From IMG/VR virus record IMGVR_UViG_3300044981_000152, positions 35,221 to 99,220 of that record: 64,000 bases of DNA; one strand, 5' to 3'. Every line of letters begins with the position of its first letter. The stretch's first letter is position 1. The stretch is from a virus. This document shows, piece after piece, positions 36,123-45,406 of this stretch. A program made the translations under genes and the position numbers. Below the pieces are notes generated by a model that was given only the letters and a program-made list of their open reading frames with translations, was not told the origin of the DNA and searched no databases.

Positions 36123-36398
36123 TTGAGCATCCAGACGATCGCCGTGCAACGGCCGGCCGCCGACAAGCTCGTGCCCATCGCGGCAGCCTCGGCCCGGCTG
36201 GGCCGGTCAGTGTGGACGCTCAAGCGCATGCACGCAAAAGGCGAGCTGCCGGTCTTCATGGCCGGCGCCAACTGGCTCGTCCCCGAGAGCTTCATCGACT
36301 TGGTATTCGCGTCGATGCGACCCGGTCGCGCCGCCGACTTTGCGGAAGTGGCGCAGGCGTGGTTCGCGGCGAACACCCCCGAGGCGGTGGCGTCCTGA
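36123..36398 (+). CDS. excisionase-like HTH protein
   Basis: LVPIAAASARLGRSVWTLKRMHAKGELP...WLVP. Confidence 0.8.
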   Translation: MSIQTIAVQRPAADKLVPIAAASARLGRSVWTLKRMHAKGELPVFMAGANWLVPESFIDLVFASMRPGRAADFAEVAQAWFAANTPEAVAS

Positions 36399-36638
36399 TG
36401 CCCATTCCTCCCCGTCAGGTCCGCATCCTGCGCTACCTCGGCGACCGTCGCGCCGCGGTCACCGTCCGGGCGACCGCCCGAGCCCTCCAGATGAACCGGG
36501 ATGACACGAAGAACGCGCTCCGGCAGCTGGCAGACAAGGGGCCTCGTGGCCGCGGACCTGAGCACGTGGCCGATGACGTACGCAATCACCGACATGGGCA
36601 GCGCGGTCCTCGCCGCTGCCGCGCGGGAGCCGAAATGA
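36398..36638 (+). pseudogene. winged-HTH protein with +1 frameshift
   Basis: Removing one G at 36538-36541 restores LADKGLVAADLSTWPMTYAITDMG...*. Confidence 0.65.
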
Positions 36639-36734
36639 CCCGCACCCCGAACAACGCGAACGCCCCGGTGCGTGAACACCGAGGCGCTGGCCAAGGCCGT
36701 CCCACCCGTAGCCCTACGAGAACGGAACAAGCCG

Positions 36735-36962
36735 ATGACCGCCACGATACACCCCGCCCGCGTCCGCAAGCCGAACCGCCGTCCGGCCGCCCTGCCCGAG
36801 TCCTGCCCGCCGCTGCCGCCCTTGACCCCCGGGCGGTCCGCCCTGCTGCTCGCCGAGCTCGAGGAGTCCTGCGCACGCCGCGGACTGCCCCCGGTCTCGT
36901 CGGAGATGAGCGCGATGGAGGCCGTCGGCACGATAGCGGTCCTGGACGCGAGCACGCGATGA
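36735..36962 (+). CDS. hypothetical protein
   Basis: Protein-like ORF in the plus-strand operon. Confidence 0.45.
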   Translation: MTATIHPARVRKPNRRPAALPESCPPLPPLTPGRSALLLAELEESCARRGLPPVSSEMSAMEAVGTIAVLDASTR

Positions 36963-37092
36963 CCGTTCCCCCGGAGCGGCCACTCCCCCGGCCTCTCCGG
37001 GGGAGTACGGAAGGACCCGCGCCATGCCCGCTTACCGAACCCCCGGCAGGTACATCAAGCCCTGCATCGTTCCCCCCGGAGAGGAGCCTGTG

Positions 37093-42265: not shown

Positions 42266-42279
42266 TCGTGCTACGGAAC

Positions 42280-42486
42280 GTGACGGCCGGCGCTCGGCTG
42301 CCTGTCACTACCTGTGACACCGGAAACCAGGCACCTGTAACATTCGCCCCGTGCGTTACAGGTGGAAGGGGGCAGCCCGGGCGGGTGGCTGACGCCGTAG
42401 GCGGCGGCTTCCCCCGCTTGGCCAGCCGTAACGGAGCGTCACAGTCATCCGGGCGAGTGCCGACCGTGCCCGGTGCGGGGGGTCAC
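42280..42486. repeat. cluster of CCTGTNAC / GTNAC motifs
   Basis: CCTGTCAC 42301, CCTGTGAC 42311, CCTGTAAC 42334, inverted GTTACAGG 42355, further GTNAC copies. Confidence 0.6.
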
Positions 42487-42491
42487 GGACG

Positions 42492-44501
42492 GTGATCGCA
42501 TTCGGGGTCCTGGGCTTCGCCGTAGCCGCGGGCATCGCCGCGGTGCTGGTCCTGGTCGTCCGCGCGGCGGCTCACGGGCTACGCCGGCACCCGCTGCCCA
42601 AGCTCGCCTGGCGGTGGTTCACCGGCCTGCCCTGGGACGGGAAGGACCCGGTACCGGACGCGACATGGTTCCACCGGGGCTCCGAGGAAGCCAACGTGAA
42701 CGGCCGGCGGATCCGGGCGTTCTACTACCGGTGCCGGCTCGCGCGGACCTGCATCCGGCTCAGCGAGACCGCCGGAGCGTGGCTGGCCGCCGTGCTGCTG
42801 GCCCTGTGGGGATCCGCCTCGTCCGTGTCCCTGGGGATCACGGTGGCCGCCGTGCTGGTGATCGCCATCGGGCTGGCCGGGTGGACGGGGGCGCGGTGGG
42901 TGCGGGTGCGGATGGCGGACGTGAAGCCGTCCGCGCAGCTGGTCCTGTACCGGTCGCGTGCGGTGGCGGCGCTGCCGGGCCCGGCGCGGTGGGAGGCCAG
43001 CCGGGAACTGTACCGGCCGATGCACTACCGGGCGCACCATCACGCGGGCATCCCGCCGTCGTTCCGGCCGCGGCGGTGGATCGAGATCGAACCGGACCGG
43101 CAGACGGTCAGGCTGACCATCCCGGACGGCCTGGACACCAGCGGGAAAGCCCTGGCGGCCCTGCATCAGGTGGTGACGCAGACGGTGTTCTGCGACAACA
43201 CCCCCGACGTGACCCCGAAGATGGCCAGCCGCCGCCGCCAGCTGGTCTACACGGCGGCCAAGCCGCCGCCCCCGCAGCTGGTGCTGCTCGACGCGGACCC
43301 GGACCGGGGGGCGCCGGGAATCCGGCACCTGATCGAGGCAGCGAAGTGGCATGAGATCGTCCTGGGGTACGGGATCGGCGGCGAGCCGGTGGTCCGGTCG
43401 CTGGGCAAGGCGGTGCCGCACTGGGGCCTGTCCATGCCCAGCGGGGACGGCAAGTCGGTCTGCGCGGAGCTGATCGCCGGGCAGCTGCTTTTCCACGGCG
43501 CGGTCTGCCTGATCCTGGACTACAAGGTGTTCTCCCACCCGTGGGCGCTGTTCGCGATGCCGAACGTGTCCTACGCGGGGACCACGGAGCAGATCCACCT
43601 GACGCTGCTGTGGCTGAAGCAGGAGGCCGCGGAGCGGAAGGAACGCGGCCTCCGGTTCATCCAGCTTGACGGGACGATGGCCGGCGACGTCGGCCCGGTG
43701 ATCTTTGTGGTGGCCGAGGAACTGAACGCCACGATCATCGAGCTGAAAGCCTACTGGCGGTCGATCGACGGGACGGGGGAATCCCCGGCGGTCGAGGCGC
43801 TGCGGGAGATGCTGTTCACCGGGCGGGCGCTGAAGATCCACTTCCTGCTGATCGCGCAGAAGCTGACGGTGGCGGCGCTCGGCGGCAAGGACTCCGCAGC
43901 GCGGGAGAACTGCGCGGGGATCCTGATGGGCGGGTCAGCGTCGGCCCCGTCGTGGAAGATGCTCGCAGAAGACGTGGAAAGGCCCGCTAAGCAGTCCGTG
44001 CCAGGGCGGCATTTCGTCGTCGACCACGGCAACGTGACGCTCTGCCAGGTCGCGTACCTGAACCCGGCCGGGCACGCGGGCCCGGAGGCCCGGCAGCTCG
44101 CCCTGGCGGGCGCGGTGACGGCACTGCCGGAGGGTATCCCGCTGGGGATCGCGAAACCTATAACCCAGGCTGCCGGAATGTCCGGAATGCCCGATGTTAC
44201 GGGAACAAACGGCAGGCTGGAGCTGGAAACACGACCTGTCGGGGCATCTGTAACGGACGCGCCCGCCCAGCTCCTCATGGGGATCACGGAGGCATGCGAG
44301 AAGGGCATCCTCCCGTGCTCGCGGGGGACCGCGCACATGCGCCGTGCCCGCGACGAGAGGTTCCCCGCGCACGTCGAGGGCGCTGAAGGGCCGCGCGGCG
44401 AGAAGATGTACGTCGCCGGGGAACTCCACGAGTACGCCCGGATCGCGTGGGGCGAGCCGGATGACACGGGCCGCCGGCGGCCGGTGCGGGTAGCCGCGTA
44501 A
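42492..44501 (+). CDS. TraB/FtsK-SpoIIIE-like conjugative DNA translocase
   Basis: N-terminal TMs, SGDGKS Walker A, LILDYK, FVVAEELN, GRALKIHFLLIAQ, C-terminal HTH. Confidence 0.85.
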   Translation: MIAFGVLGFAVAAGIAAVLVLVVRAAAHGLRRHPLPKLAWRWFTGLPWDGKDPVPDATWFHRGSEEANVNGRRIRAFYYRCRLARTCIRLSETAGAWLAAVLLALWGSASSVSLGITVAAVLVIAIGLAGWTGARWVRVRMADVKPSAQLVLYRSRAVAALPGPARWEASRELYRPMHYRAHHHAGIPPSFRPRRWIEIEPDRQTVRLTIPDGLDTSGKALAALHQVVTQTVFCDNTPDVTPKMASRRRQLVYTAAKPPPPQLVLLDADPDRGAPGIRHLIEAAKWHEIVLGYGIGGEPVVRSLGKAVPHWGLSMPSGDGKSVCAELIAGQLLFHGAVCLILDYKVFSHPWALFAMPNVSYAGTTEQIHLTLLWLKQEAAERKERGLRFIQLDGTMAGDVGPVIFVVAEELNATIIELKAYWRSIDGTGESPAVEALREMLFTGRALKIHFLLIAQKLTVAALGGKDSAARENCAGILMGGSASAPSWKMLAEDVERPAKQSVPGRHFVVDHGNVTLCQVAYLNPAGHAGPEARQLALAGAVTALPEGIPLGIAKPITQAAGMSGMPDVTGTNGRLELETRPVGASVTDAPAQLLMGITEACEKGILPCSRGTAHMRRARDERFPAHVEGAEGPRGEKMYVAGELHEYARIAWGEPDDTGRRRPVRVAA

Positions 44502-45406
44502 TGAACGCAAACGACGGAAAAGATCAGCGAAACGGGACAACTATGGACGCCATGCCTACCGCACCAGCACACGCCAAGCCCGCCCGCCGCGACAGCCTCC
44601 TGCCGGTCCTGGTCCTCATCCTCGCCGGGGGCCTGCTCGAGGTGTGGGCGTCCTGGCTCCAGATCGGCGCCGTGTCCGGCTTCCCGCACCTGGGCCCGGT
44701 GACGACCGGGTGGATCCTGCCCGTGACCGCCGAAGCCTACTGGGGATCCGCTTTGTGGGCGTGGCTCGTGGATCCGGCCGGCCCGAAGTCGAGGCTGTTC
44801 GCGATGTGGTCGGCCGCCGCGGTGTTCGCGCTGAGCCTGGCCGGGCAGGAGTCCGACCACCTGATGGCCTTCGCGCACCGCACCGTCCCGCCTGTCGGGG
44901 CGGCGATGCTGCTGACCGCGCTGCCGCTGACCGCGGTCGCGATGGGCGCCATCCTGATCCACCTCCGCCAGGTCGACCGCGCCGAAGCGACGGAGGCTGA
45001 CGCGATGACGGCAGCGGCTGCTGAACTCGCCGCGCTGCGGGTACAGCTGGAGGTGCAGCGGGCGGCCGTTTCTGCGGCGCAATCCGAGCGCGACGAGGCG
45101 CAGCAGCATGCCGCAGAATTGCAGGCTAAGACTGATGTGCTCACCCGCAGGCTGGCCGCCGCTGCGGGTGTCAAGAGGGGTCGCAAGCCGCCCGCAAAAC
45201 GAGGCTCCGCTGCGCCCGCAACCAAGGTCCCCAGGAACGTCGACGTGCAGACCGAAGCGCTCGTCATCCTCGCCGCAGAACCGGACATCACCGGAGAGGA
45301 ACTCGCGGAGCGCGTAGGCCGCAGCGAACGGTGGGGGCAGACCTTCAAGAAGAACCACGCCCACCCGCCTGCAGGGCCGGCTGAGCAGACTCAGGAGACA
45401 TCATGA
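44501..45406 (+). CDS. Spd/DUF2637-like multi-TM protein with coiled coil and C-terminal HTH
   Basis: Four TMs, coiled coil, PDITGEELAERVGRSERWG; directly after the TraB-like gene. Confidence 0.75.
   Translation: MNANDGKDQRNGTTMDAMPTAPAHAKPARRDSLLPVLVLILAGGLLEVWASWLQIGAVSGFPHLGPVTTGWILPVTAEAYWGSALWAWLVDPAGPKSRLFAMWSAAAVFALSLAGQESDHLMAFAHRTVPPVGAAMLLTALPLTAVAMGAILIHLRQVDRAEATEADAMTAAAAELAALRVQLEVQRAAVSAAQSERDEAQQHAAELQAKTDVLTRRLAAAAGVKRGRKPPAKRGSAAPATKVPRNVDVQTEALVILAAEPDITGEELAERVGRSERWGQTFKKNHAHPPAGPAEQTQETS

What the first reader, a model, noticed from the sequence alone, without database searches (positions are those of the whole stretch)
36123..45406. Conjugation-type module (VirD4-like plus TraB-like ATPases) inside a tailed-phage genome
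Seen: one operon between the immunity region and late genes encodes a type IV coupling protein, an FtsK-like TraB and an Spd-like membrane protein. No integrase, att repeat, Rep, relaxase or VirB4 is nearby, and the operon runs by overlapping codons into ordinary phage genes at 45403. Knowledge: TraB alone transfers dsDNA between mycelial actinomycetes, whereas VirD4 normally needs a relaxase and a T4SS. Inference: a phage that can also spread by hyphal conjugation, rather than a separately inserted element.
Basis: partly seen in the sequence, partly recalled or inferred. Interest (0 to 1): 0.82.

Follow-up and report, generated by a model that had tools for sequence, protein, structure and literature searches.

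The report
Plasmid-type DNA-pump genes native to actinophages
A complete 99-kb temperate phage of a high-GC actinomycete carries, as a conserved part of its own genome, two membrane DNA-pump ATPases of the kind plasmids use for conjugation, but no relaxase or secretion channel, so it may move its DNA between cells without virions, though this is untested.

Summary
The genes are real. The contig is an IMG/VR virus record rated 100% complete. It has integrase and xis, DnaB, RecT, terminase, portal, tape measure and lysin.

The rightward operon at 36123-45406 encodes:
- a VirD4/TraG coupling protein, above Pfam cut-offs;
- a translationally coupled Arg-rich zinc-finger protein;
- a homing HNH endonuclease;
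- a membrane-anchored ATPase with no Pfam hit, whose model matches the FtsK motor (Foldseek E 5e-15) and TcpA;
- a multi-pass membrane protein with coiled coil and HTH.

No relaxase, VirB4, Rep or flanking att repeat was found in the 99 kb. The module is not a recent insert or a chimera. Logan contigs bridge both borders at even depth. The T4CP / FtsK-like / terminase order recurs in two other viral contigs, and T4CP / zinc-finger / HNH / FtsK-like / membrane protein recurs in a 128-kb genome. Phage T4CPs form their own clade apart from plasmid ones. In 11 of 13 relatives the FtsK-like gene lies within 2.5 kb of a DUF2637 gene, as on plasmid pRL2.

"TraB" and "Spd" membership are not shown. 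No clt-like repeats were found. Large phages carry the T4CP without the FtsK-like gene. Hyphal conjugation is therefore plausible but unproven. The scan noted this stretch once more in the same genome, and not on other DNA.

The parts
34252..35118 (-). HTH_31 + DUF5753 (Xre-type) regulator, last gene of the leftward trio that diverges from the operon
   Evidence: Pfam DUF5753 9e-32 and HTH_31 3.5e-8. The same regulator / DUF6879 / small-ORF trio diverges from a DUF2637-T4CP operon on Pseudonocardia plasmid pPA12743CP.
35129..35698 (-). DUF6879 protein
   Evidence: Pfam 1.2e-50. 39% identical to the DUF6879 gene beside the plasmid T4CP operon.
35701..35946 (-). 81-aa ORF, first gene of the leftward trio
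   Evidence: GC3 0.90. No family hit.
35947..36122 (.). AT-richer divergent control region
   Evidence: Sequence. One promoter-like site on the - strand.
36123..38741 (+). Seven small ORFs: 36123-36398, 36672-36962, 37024-37533 (2 TM), 37530-37982, 37979-38284, 38281-38556, 38553-38741
   Evidence: Frame plot and GC3. Repeated GGGGAGG-N-GTGA coupling junctions (family D9). No family hits. 37530-37982 has a 53% homologue upstream of the T4CP in viral contig G004.
38929..40749 (+). Membrane-anchored VirD4/TraG-type coupling protein (606 aa; the longer ORF starts at 38812)
   Evidence: Pfam. The Walker A Lys and the Walker B DE are invariant across 22 homologues. The called 606-aa form is on record. 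It sits in a phage-only clade.
40749..41438 (+). Arg-rich basic protein with a C2H2-like zinc-finger motif, translationally coupled to the T4CP
   Evidence: 37-44% identical to the gene after the T4CP in G001. Every phage T4CP examined is followed by a roughly 200-aa Arg-rich protein.
41447..42265 (+). HNH homing endonuclease
   Evidence: PHROG 1492 and 959, about 1e-9. It sits at different places in relatives.
42262..42495 (+). 77-aa ORF
   Evidence: ORF list. No family hit.
42492..44501 (+). Membrane-anchored FtsK/TcpA/TraB-like P-loop ATPase (669 aa) with a small C-terminal helical domain that may bind DNA
   Evidence: Motifs GDGKS, EELNA and IAQK are conserved. The profile hits FtsK 2ius at 1.5e-4 and TcpA at 4e-3. 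AF2 model pLDDT 72. Foldseek matches the FtsK motor at 5e-15 and TcpA at 3e-13. About 30% identical to pRL2-11/DUF87 proteins on 52 actinomycete plasmids, 48 of them Streptomyces.
44501..45406 (+). Multi-pass membrane protein with coiled coil and C-terminal HTH, in the slot held by DUF2637 proteins in relatives
   Evidence: Translation and hydropathy (two 19-residue windows at threshold; about four hydrophobic stretches by eye). Weak HTH_11/HTH_24 hits. 34% homologue beside the FtsK-like gene in L028. DUF2637 not detected. Atlas gives only leads to DUF2637 and SpdB_N clusters at 0.79-0.83.
45403..45726 (+). First ordinary phage gene after the module (ATGA overlap)
   Evidence: phrog_10666 6e-12. 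Junction sequence.

Best explanation
What it is (shown): the stretch is a native, lineage-conserved operon of a complete temperate tailed actinophage of about 99 kb. It is not an inserted ICE or AICE, and it is not a self-sufficient type IV conjugation system.

The operon encodes three membrane components of the kind that actinomycete plasmids use to move DNA:
- a VirD4/TraG-type coupling ATPase from a phage-only clade, coupled to an Arg-rich zinc-finger protein;
- an N-terminally membrane-anchored FtsK/TcpA/TraB-like ATPase with a small C-terminal helical domain;
- a multi-pass membrane protein with coiled coil and HTH, in the position where relatives carry DUF2637.

How it works (inferred): after the divergent promoter at about 36.0 kb opens, these proteins assemble in the host membrane. 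There they form a relaxase-independent translocation complex for double-stranded DNA that acts on the phage genome.

The use I favour is virion-independent passage of phage DNA across hyphal cross-walls, or into adjacent hyphae, as TraB and the Spd proteins do for Streptomyces plasmids. The direction, the substrate and the purpose of transport are not shown.
For: The contig is a phage:
- IMG/VR record, CheckV 100%.
- Integrase, xis, tape measure and GH25 lysin.
- DnaB, RecT, YqaJ and ParB.
- TerL and portal.

Gene identities:
- T4CP by Pfam.
- FtsK/TcpA fold for the second ATPase.
- Distant relatives reach FtsK_SpoIIIE at or near cut-off.
- Catalytic motifs are invariant across homologues of 32-86% identity and 28-69% identity.

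Native to the phage:
- No flanking repeats.
- GC3 0.90-0.91, like neighbouring phage genes.
- Logan contigs cover 33500-39325 and 39308-53400 with no differences, at depths 17.4 and 16.7.
- T4CP / FtsK-like / g47946 / g49170 / TerL (72-74% identical) in the 73-kb contig G004, and T4CP / FtsK-like / TerS (54%) in G019.
- T4CP / zinc-finger / HNH / FtsK-like / DUF2637-like in the 128-kb terminally repeated genome G001.
- In a quick tree, 30 viral and metagenomic T4CPs form one clade (SH-aLRT 100) apart from 8 plasmid and chromosomal ones.
- The best match in 401 Streptomycetaceae genomes is 35%, and the best among plasmids is 36%.

Link to plasmid transfer:
- pRL2 has DUF2637 followed by pRL2-11.
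- Actinomycete plasmids have DUF2637 / T4CP / MobF.
- In 11 of 13 viral records that carry the FtsK-like gene, a DUF2637 gene lies 0.45-2.5 kb away on the same strand.
- 9 of the 19 viral records examined carry a portal (8 above the Pfam cut-off), and 8 of those 9 carry the FtsK-like gene.

Other:
- No defence-system family matched.
Against: - There is no functional data of any kind.
- The host is unknown, so a mycelial lifestyle is assumed from the taxa of the homologues only.
- No clt-like cluster of 8-mers lies near the module, and no over-represented polar 8-mer exists in the genome.
- This copy lacks the FtsK gamma domain present in its 82-86% homologues.
- The membrane protein fails the DUF2637 tests.
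- Five phages of 124-152 kb carry the T4CP beside SNF2 and DnaB helicases with no FtsK-like gene. This points to a role in DNA metabolism.
- TerL is 72-74% identical between G000 and G004, but the T4CP is 41% and the FtsK-like protein 32%. The module therefore evolves fast or is exchanged.
- GC of 39-43 kb is 3-4 points above the phage mean.
Confidence: 0.5

Rival explanations
1. Replication or genome-processing accessory. The phage T4CP, with its basic zinc-finger partner, and the FtsK-like ATPase handle phage DNA inside one cell. Examples would be anchoring replicating or concatemeric DNA at the membrane, resolving it, or feeding it to packaging. No intercellular transfer is involved.
For: - In G002, G003 and G005 the T4CP is followed by an Arg-rich protein, an SNF2 helicase and a DnaB-like helicase.
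- Those genomes lack the FtsK-like gene.
- In the window the module lies directly upstream of the packaging genes.
Against: - Both ATPases keep N-terminal membrane anchors.
- The conserved partner is a polytopic membrane protein.
- The nearest non-phage homologues sit in plasmid transfer regions.
Confidence: 0.15
2. Host or competitor manipulation. The phage copies of conjugation and segregation ATPases interfere with host chromosome segregation or sporulation septation. Alternatively they act as decoys that block resident plasmids, AICEs or superinfecting phages.
For: - FtsK/SpoIIIE-like genes in Streptomyces phages are discussed together with WhiB and Lsr2 as development-related genes (PMC13587820).
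- This phage also carries WhiB and ParB.
Against: - No PADLOC family matched.
- Catalytic motifs of both ATPases are conserved, which is not expected for decoys.
- The operon is wired to the lytic and late genes rather than placed like a lysogenic moron.
Confidence: 0.15
3. Genome-internalisation motor. The module lies just upstream of the terminase genes. It would therefore be packaged last and ejected first. Its products would then pull the rest of the 99-kb genome into the cell, comparable to the two-step or push-pull entry of T5 and phi29 (from general knowledge).
For: - Position next to TerS and TerL.
- Membrane-anchored dsDNA-motor folds.
- Large genome sizes (99-152 kb) of most T4CP carriers.
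Against: - The physical genome ends are unknown. In G010 the portal is split across the ends, so its 'terminal repeat' is an assembly overlap of a permuted genome, and the same may hold for other records.
- FtsK-like plus DUF2637 also occurs in phages of about 50 kb.
- No precedent is known to me.
Confidence: 0.1
4. Inert cargo, artefact, or a recently captured ICE/AICE fragment with no role for the phage.
For: - GC is slightly raised over 39-43 kb.
- A homing HNH gene lies inside the module.
- The gamma domain has been lost relative to the closest homologues.
Against: - Synteny in independent metagenomes.
- A phage-only T4CP clade.
- Intact motifs.
- Translational coupling.
- Bridging contigs at even depth.
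- No att site and no integrase of its own.
Confidence: 0.04

Closest known systems
Streptomyces TraB/Spd double-stranded-DNA conjugation apparatus (pSVH1, pIJ101, AICEs such as pSAM2)
   Same: - A membrane-associated FtsK-like hexameric-motor fold with a small C-terminal domain.
- A polytopic membrane partner.
- No relaxase.
- Tightly overlapping small genes.
The TraB architecture is from knowledge (Vogelmann 2011; Thoma 2015, PMC4447253).
   Different: - No Pfam FtsK_SpoIIIE hit.
- No clt or TRS repeats found.
- Encoded by a tailed phage.
- Accompanied by a VirD4-type T4CP, which TraB systems lack.
- The partner is not demonstrably Spd or DUF2637.
- No direct comparison with a canonical TraB sequence could be made.
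pRL2-11 / 'DUF87 domain' ATPase plus DUF2637 gene pair on Streptomyces plasmids (pRL2, NC_007927)
   Same: - The closest non-viral homologues of the 669-aa ATPase: about 30% identity over 72% of its length, on 52 actinomycete plasmids (48 Streptomyces).
- The same pairing with a membrane protein.
   Different: - The function of pRL2-11 is not established in the papers I could search.
- Phage copies are 31-53% identical to each other and form their own set.
VirD4/TraG/TrwB coupling proteins of actinobacterial MOBF plasmids (NZ_CP108979, pPA12743CP)
   Same: - Pfam domains, two N-terminal TM helices and Walker motifs.
- A DUF2637 neighbour on plasmids.
- pPA12743CP even shares the divergent regulator / DUF6879 trio.
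   Different: - At most 36% identity and a separate clade.
- No MobF or any other relaxase, and no VirB4, in the phage.
TcpA / FtsK-type coupling proteins of Firmicute conjugation (pCW3)
   Same: Second-best structural match: Foldseek 3e-13, TM by target 0.54-0.57. Profile E 4e-3.
   Different: 16-17% identity. TcpA works with a relaxase and a Tcp channel.
Phage-borne relatives already noted in the literature: SpdB2 homologues in phiC31 and VWB; FtsK/SpoIIIE-like proteins in Streptomyces phages
   Same: - They set the precedent that actinophages carry plasmid-spread or FtsK-like genes, with speculation about spreading phage DNA.
- Phage Dagobah has a 309-aa core homologue at 33% identity.
   Different: - No T4CP homologue was found in 50,697 deposited phage genomes.
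- phiC31 and Dagobah lack DUF2637.
- The triad of T4CP, membrane FtsK-like ATPase and membrane protein was not found described.
Phage-plasmids (P1, N15, SSU5 types)
   Same: A mix of phage and plasmid gene repertoires. A ParB-like gene is present.
   Different: - This phage has an integrase and xis, and no plasmid Rep was found.
- Phage-plasmids are described as transferring between cells as phages (PMC12282955).

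Membership tests
VirD4/TraG/TraD type IV coupling protein | Nucleotide-binding domain matched by the T4CP profiles, with Walker A Lys and Walker B DE | tested here: met
   TraG-D_C at 72 bits (cut-off 22) and T4SS-DNA_transf at 39 bits (cut-off 20.1). K150, D392 and E393 are invariant in 22 sequences. The Walker A is atypical (PPQTFKT).
VirD4/TraG/TraD type IV coupling protein | N-terminal transmembrane anchor | tested here: met
   Two hydrophobic helices at residues 64-101 of the 645-aa ORF.
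VirD4/TraG/TraD type IV coupling protein | Works with a cognate relaxase and a VirB4-containing channel in the same element | tested here: not met
   No relaxase or VirB4 family in any scanned ORF of the 99 kb. AAA_10 is sub-threshold only.
Streptomyces TraB | FtsK/SpoIIIE-type motor domain | tested here: inconclusive
   Met at fold level (Foldseek FtsK 5e-15) and by profile (1.5e-4). No Pfam FtsK_SpoIIIE hit. Distant relatives score 18-27 bits against a cut-off of 24.
Streptomyces TraB | Membrane association through the N-terminus | tested here: met
   Predicted helices 2-32 and 82-141. Hydropathy.
Streptomyces TraB | C-terminal winged helix that binds repeated 8-bp TRS motifs in a clt locus | tested here: inconclusive
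   A helical C-terminal domain at 598-653 is modelled at pLDDT 74-89. No clustered 8-mer array lies near the module; the only array is at 12.8-13.1 kb beside DnaB. The gamma domain of close homologues is absent.
Streptomyces TraB | Sufficient for transfer of a clt-bearing replicon between mycelia | not testable with these tools
   Needs mating assays.
Spd / DUF2637 membrane proteins | Sequence match to DUF2637 (or SpdB_N) | tested here: not met
   No hit at E<=10 in the six frames of the genome nor at E<=1 on the protein. hhalign probability 5%. PF27080 is not in the library. Atlas gives leads only, at 0.79-0.83.
Spd / DUF2637 membrane proteins | Polytopic membrane protein encoded beside the FtsK-like transfer ATPase | tested here: met
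   One-nt overlap with the ATPase gene. Several hydrophobic stretches in the translation, two reaching the hydropathy threshold. In relatives the slot is filled by DUF2637 proteins.
ICE / AICE (integrative conjugative element) | Own integrase and flanking att repeats delimiting the element | tested here: not met
   No repeats of 80% identity or more and useful length bracket 34-46 kb. The only integrase is the phage's, 37 kb away beside xis.
ICE / AICE (integrative conjugative element) | Own replication initiator (Rep) or relaxase | tested here: not met
   None found.
Tailed temperate phage (Caudoviricetes) | Terminase, portal, tail and lysis genes plus an integration module on one molecule | tested here: met
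   CheckV 100%.

The most novel reading that the evidence does not exclude
Tailed phages of filamentous actinomycetes have a second, virion-independent route of spread. A relaxase-free apparatus pumps the double-stranded phage genome through hyphal cross-walls or into neighbouring hyphae. It is made of a phage-clade VirD4-like coupling protein with a basic zinc-finger adaptor, a TraB-like FtsK motor and a DUF2637-type membrane protein. On this reading one element is both a virus and a conjugative element.
Probability: 0.25. Interest if true: 0.9.

Novelty: new variant of a known kind. Interest (0 to 1): 0.65.

Why it matters
Phages and conjugative elements are treated as separate vehicles of gene flow. 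Known hybrids (phage-plasmids) are described as moving between cells as phages.

What is new here:
- A clade of VirD4-like coupling proteins confined to actinophage genomes, including records of 99-152 kb that CheckV rates 97-100% complete.
- A recurrent pair of FtsK-like ATPase and DUF2637 protein in phages.

Together these show that plasmid-type membrane DNA translocases are long-standing phage genes.

If they move phage DNA between hyphal compartments, this would explain how a virus exploits a multicellular, septated host. It would also turn a 2015 speculation about Spd homologues into a testable mechanism. If they instead serve replication, entry or host takeover, they are a new use of T4CPs without a relaxase or a T4SS.

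Tried and rejected
I could not inspect the 98.6-kb contig that holds a 69% T4CP homologue, nor the 25.6-kb contig that seems to hold both an 86% FtsK-like and a 41% T4CP homologue.
- Single-protein scans of IMG/VR found nothing. Alignment-based scans were needed.
- No T4CP homologue in 50,697 deposited phage genomes, and no homologue of the membrane protein there.
- The GTDB species genomes hold only relatives of the FtsK-like protein at 38% identity or less.
- SCP2 (NC_003904) is not in the plasmid collection, so no direct comparison with a canonical TraB was possible.
- Complex prediction of the T4CP soluble part with the zinc-finger protein returned no verdict.
- hhalign of the membrane protein against DUF2637-type neighbours gave 5% probability.
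- The promoter and terminator scan was uninformative.
- The search for clt-like 8-mer clusters, polar 8-mers and a gamma-domain remnant was negative.
- No RNA holder was listed for the stretch, so nothing can be said on expression.
- Two other soil runs hold only short, low-depth pieces of this or related DNA.
- PADLOC gave only coiled-coil and HNH noise.
- Literature searches found no description of T4CP-bearing actinophages.
- I rejected equating DUF2637 with the SpdB2 homologue of phiC31, because phiC31 has no DUF2637 match.

Full report
**The replicon.** The window is bases 35221-99220 of a single 99,220-bp contig. It is an IMG/VR virus record that CheckV rates 100% complete. Its first 126 nt recur at 99076, after which the two copies differ only at synonymous sites. 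The assembly is therefore essentially circular, with some strain variation at the junction.

Outside the window lie a tape-measure gene, a GH25 lysin, an N6/N4 methylase, an HTH_17 xis and a tyrosine integrase (contig 32318-34054). Inside the window, the left 25 kb carries early genes on the minus strand: DnaB, RecT, a YqaJ exonuclease, ParB, DUF5131 and a C5 methylase. The right part carries TerS, TerL, portal and head genes. The element is a temperate tailed phage of a roughly 70% GC actinomycete. Its TerL is only about 35% identical to any deposited phage, so there is no cultured relative.

**The operon.** Frame-plot analysis and the ORF list give a rightward gene chain. It starts at a TTG at 36123, preceded by GGAG, and runs through 45406 into the phage genes beyond. 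Junctions overlap by 1 or 4 nt, and a GGGGAGG-N-GTGA coupling motif recurs (family D9).
- Seven small ORFs have no family.
- 38929-40749 is a VirD4/TraG-type coupling protein, above Pfam cut-offs. It has two N-terminal TM helices. The Walker A lysine and the Walker B DE are invariant in 22 homologues.
- Its stop overlaps the ATG of a 229-aa Arg-rich protein with a C2H2-like motif.
- Next come an HNH homing endonuclease and a 77-aa ORF.
- The 669-aa protein P0001 (42492-44501) follows, and then the 301-aa membrane protein P0003.

**The second ATPase.** P0001 has no hit in Pfam, PHROGs or NCBIfam, and PF01580 finds nothing in the six frames of the genome. It does carry GDGKS, EELNA and IAQK motifs that are invariant across 15 homologues.
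- A profile of the family hits E. coli FtsK (1.5e-4) and the pCW3 coupling protein TcpA (4e-3).
- An AlphaFold2 model (pLDDT 72) matches the FtsK motor (Foldseek E 5e-15, probability 1.0), then TcpA (3e-13), EccC/EssC and HerA.
- More distant relatives in Streptomyces and Kitasatospora genomes and plasmids reach FtsK_SpoIIIE at or near its cut-off.
- The architecture is N-terminal membrane helices, a motor, and a small C-terminal helical domain at 598-653.

Its closest non-viral homologues (about 30% identity over 72% of the length) are 'pRL2-11' or 'DUF87' proteins on 52 actinomycete plasmids, 48 of them Streptomyces. In pRL2 that gene follows a DUF2637 membrane protein in what looks like the transfer region. 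The closest metagenomic homologues (82-86%) are about 115 aa longer and end in an FtsK gamma domain. This copy lacks that domain, and no remnant exists anywhere in the genome. So 'FtsK/TcpA-like membrane ATPase' is shown. 'TraB' is a resemblance, not a demonstrated membership.

**The membrane protein.** P0003 has several hydrophobic stretches, a coiled coil and a weak C-terminal HTH. It does not match DUF2637, and a profile-profile comparison with DUF2637-type neighbours fails. Language-model look-alikes point weakly to DUF2637 and SpdB_N clusters (0.79-0.83; leads only).

Its position is nevertheless telling. In 11 of 13 viral records that carry an A1-family ATPase, a DUF2637 gene lies 0.45-2.5 kb from that ATPase on the same strand (with locus coordinates). 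Several of these were confirmed on the proteins themselves.

**What is absent.** Every ORF of 300 aa or more, and 61 further ORFs, were scanned. The only families found were regulators, WhiB, methylases and DUFs. There is no relaxase, VirB4 or Rep (one search is sub-threshold on P0001's own P-loop). No direct repeats of att quality bracket the module, and the window has no tRNA. The module cannot be a self-sufficient T4SS conjugation system, and it is not delimited like an ICE or AICE.

**Native or inserted?** Several lines say native.
1. GC3 of the two ATPase genes (0.90-0.91) is typical of the phage, although total GC over 39-43 kb is 3-4 points above the mean.
2. Logan's independent assembly of the likely source run gives two contigs, covering 33500-39325 and 39308-53400, with zero differences and depths of 17.4 and 16.7. 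Both borders of the module are therefore bridged.
3. The gene order recurs in other metagenomes.
   - In the 73-kb contig G004: T4CP (41%), FtsK-like (32%), HNH, g47946-like, g49170-like, then TerL (72-74%). A true DUF2637 gene lies 2.5 kb downstream of the FtsK-like gene.
   - In G019: T4CP, FtsK-like, a membrane-plus-HTH protein, then TerS (54%).
   - In the 128-kb genome G001 (terminal repeats): T4CP, a zinc-finger homologue (37%), HNH, an intein-bearing FtsK-like gene, then a weak DUF2637 with HTH.
4. In a quick maximum-likelihood tree, the 30 viral and metagenomic T4CPs form one clade (SH-aLRT 100), separated by a long branch from 8 plasmid and chromosomal T4CPs. The best plasmid match is 36%, and the best in 401 Streptomycetaceae genomes is 35%.
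5. 9 of the 19 viral records examined carry a portal gene, 8 of them above the Pfam cut-off. Eight of these nine also carry the FtsK-like gene, so they are phages and not misfiled AICEs.

**A link to plasmids on the left side.** The best plasmid T4CP hit, Pseudonocardia pPA12743CP, has the layout regulator / DUF6879 / small ORF on one strand, diverging from an operon with DUF2637 and T4CP on the other. The window has the same trio (HTH_31+DUF5753, DUF6879, 81-aa ORF) diverging from its operon, and the two DUF6879 proteins are 39% identical. The other T4CP phages do not show this trio within 10 kb.

**What weakens the conjugation reading.**
- Five phages of 124-152 kb (CheckV 82-100%; G005 with terminal repeats) carry the T4CP, followed by an Arg-rich protein of about 200 aa, an SNF2 helicase and a DnaB-like helicase.
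- Those genomes have no A1-family ATPase. Four of the five do hold DUF2637 elsewhere.
- No clt-like array or polar 8-mer was found. The only repeat array (17-nt units at 12942-13101) lies beside DnaB and looks like an origin.
- The host is unknown.

**Rivals considered.** I considered a role in replication or genome handling, manipulation of the host or of competitors (no PADLOC match), a motor that pulls the genome in at infection, and inert cargo. These are given in the Rival explanations section.

**Prior art.**
- Thoma et al. [quoted passage not shown]
- FtsK/SpoIIIE-like genes are listed among notable genes of Streptomyces phages.
- Phage Dagobah has a 309-aa core homologue of P0001.
- I found no description of VirD4-type coupling proteins in actinophages, nor of the triad described here.

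**Verdict.** The 'hyphal conjugation' half is a reasonable hypothesis, but it is not established.

Noticed in passing
window 34252-35946 (- strand); L049:1586-3366: The trio of HTH_31/DUF5753 regulator, DUF6879 and a small ORF diverges from the T4CP operon here. It does the same on Pseudonocardia plasmid pPA12743CP, where the DUF6879 protein is 39% identical. It may be the module's switch rather than phage immunity.
   Followed up: partly
window 40749-41438; L033:11578-12165; L034:11486-12112; L035:11394-11978; L037:8100-8750; L036:11782-12435: Every phage T4CP gene examined is followed by an extremely Arg-rich protein of about 200 aa. These proteins end in R-x-R-like tails. The copies in the window and in G001 share a C2H2-like motif. 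They could be a DNA-binding adaptor or a T4CP substrate.
   Followed up: partly
window 12942-13101: Two arrays of roughly 17-nt units (GGGGGTGCAGATT[C/T]TGC, partly palindromic) lie in the 1.7-kb gene-free gap beside DnaB. This is probably the replication origin.
   Followed up: partly
contig 1-126 and 99076-99201 (window 63856-63981): The contig ends share 126 identical nt. After that they differ only at synonymous codon positions. This suggests circular closure through a gene that is polymorphic in the sample, or two paralogous copies.
   Followed up: partly
P0006-P0015 (metagenome homologues of 42492-44501); L033:12947-15907: The closest homologues of the FtsK-like protein carry an extra C-terminal FtsK gamma domain. 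One homologue and the G001 copy carry a LAGLIDADG intein. The gene is a hotspot for domain gain and for selfish elements.
   Followed up: partly
L034, L035, L037, L038, L039 (IMG/VR records of 124-152 kb): A group of large actinophages (CheckV 82-100%) carries a T4CP, an Arg-rich protein, an SNF2 helicase (one with an intein) and a DnaB-like helicase in one block. They have no FtsK-like gene.
   Followed up: partly
G004:C1:28327-29795 (L042, L043): The TerL homologue of the related 73-kb contig is read with two in-frame TGA codons and as two pieces. This could be a frameshift, an intein or intron, or an assembly error.
   Followed up: no
window 31103-31390 (probable): One small ORF of the control region is a GntR-family winged helix, the regulator class that controls traB on Streptomyces plasmids. 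I assigned it to this ORF only through a weak BLAST match.
   Followed up: partly
P0006 and P0103 (both on an ENA contig of 25,628 nt): An 86% homologue of the FtsK-like protein and a 41% homologue of the T4CP appear to share one contig. This would mean the two genes are exchanged independently among phages.
   Followed up: no
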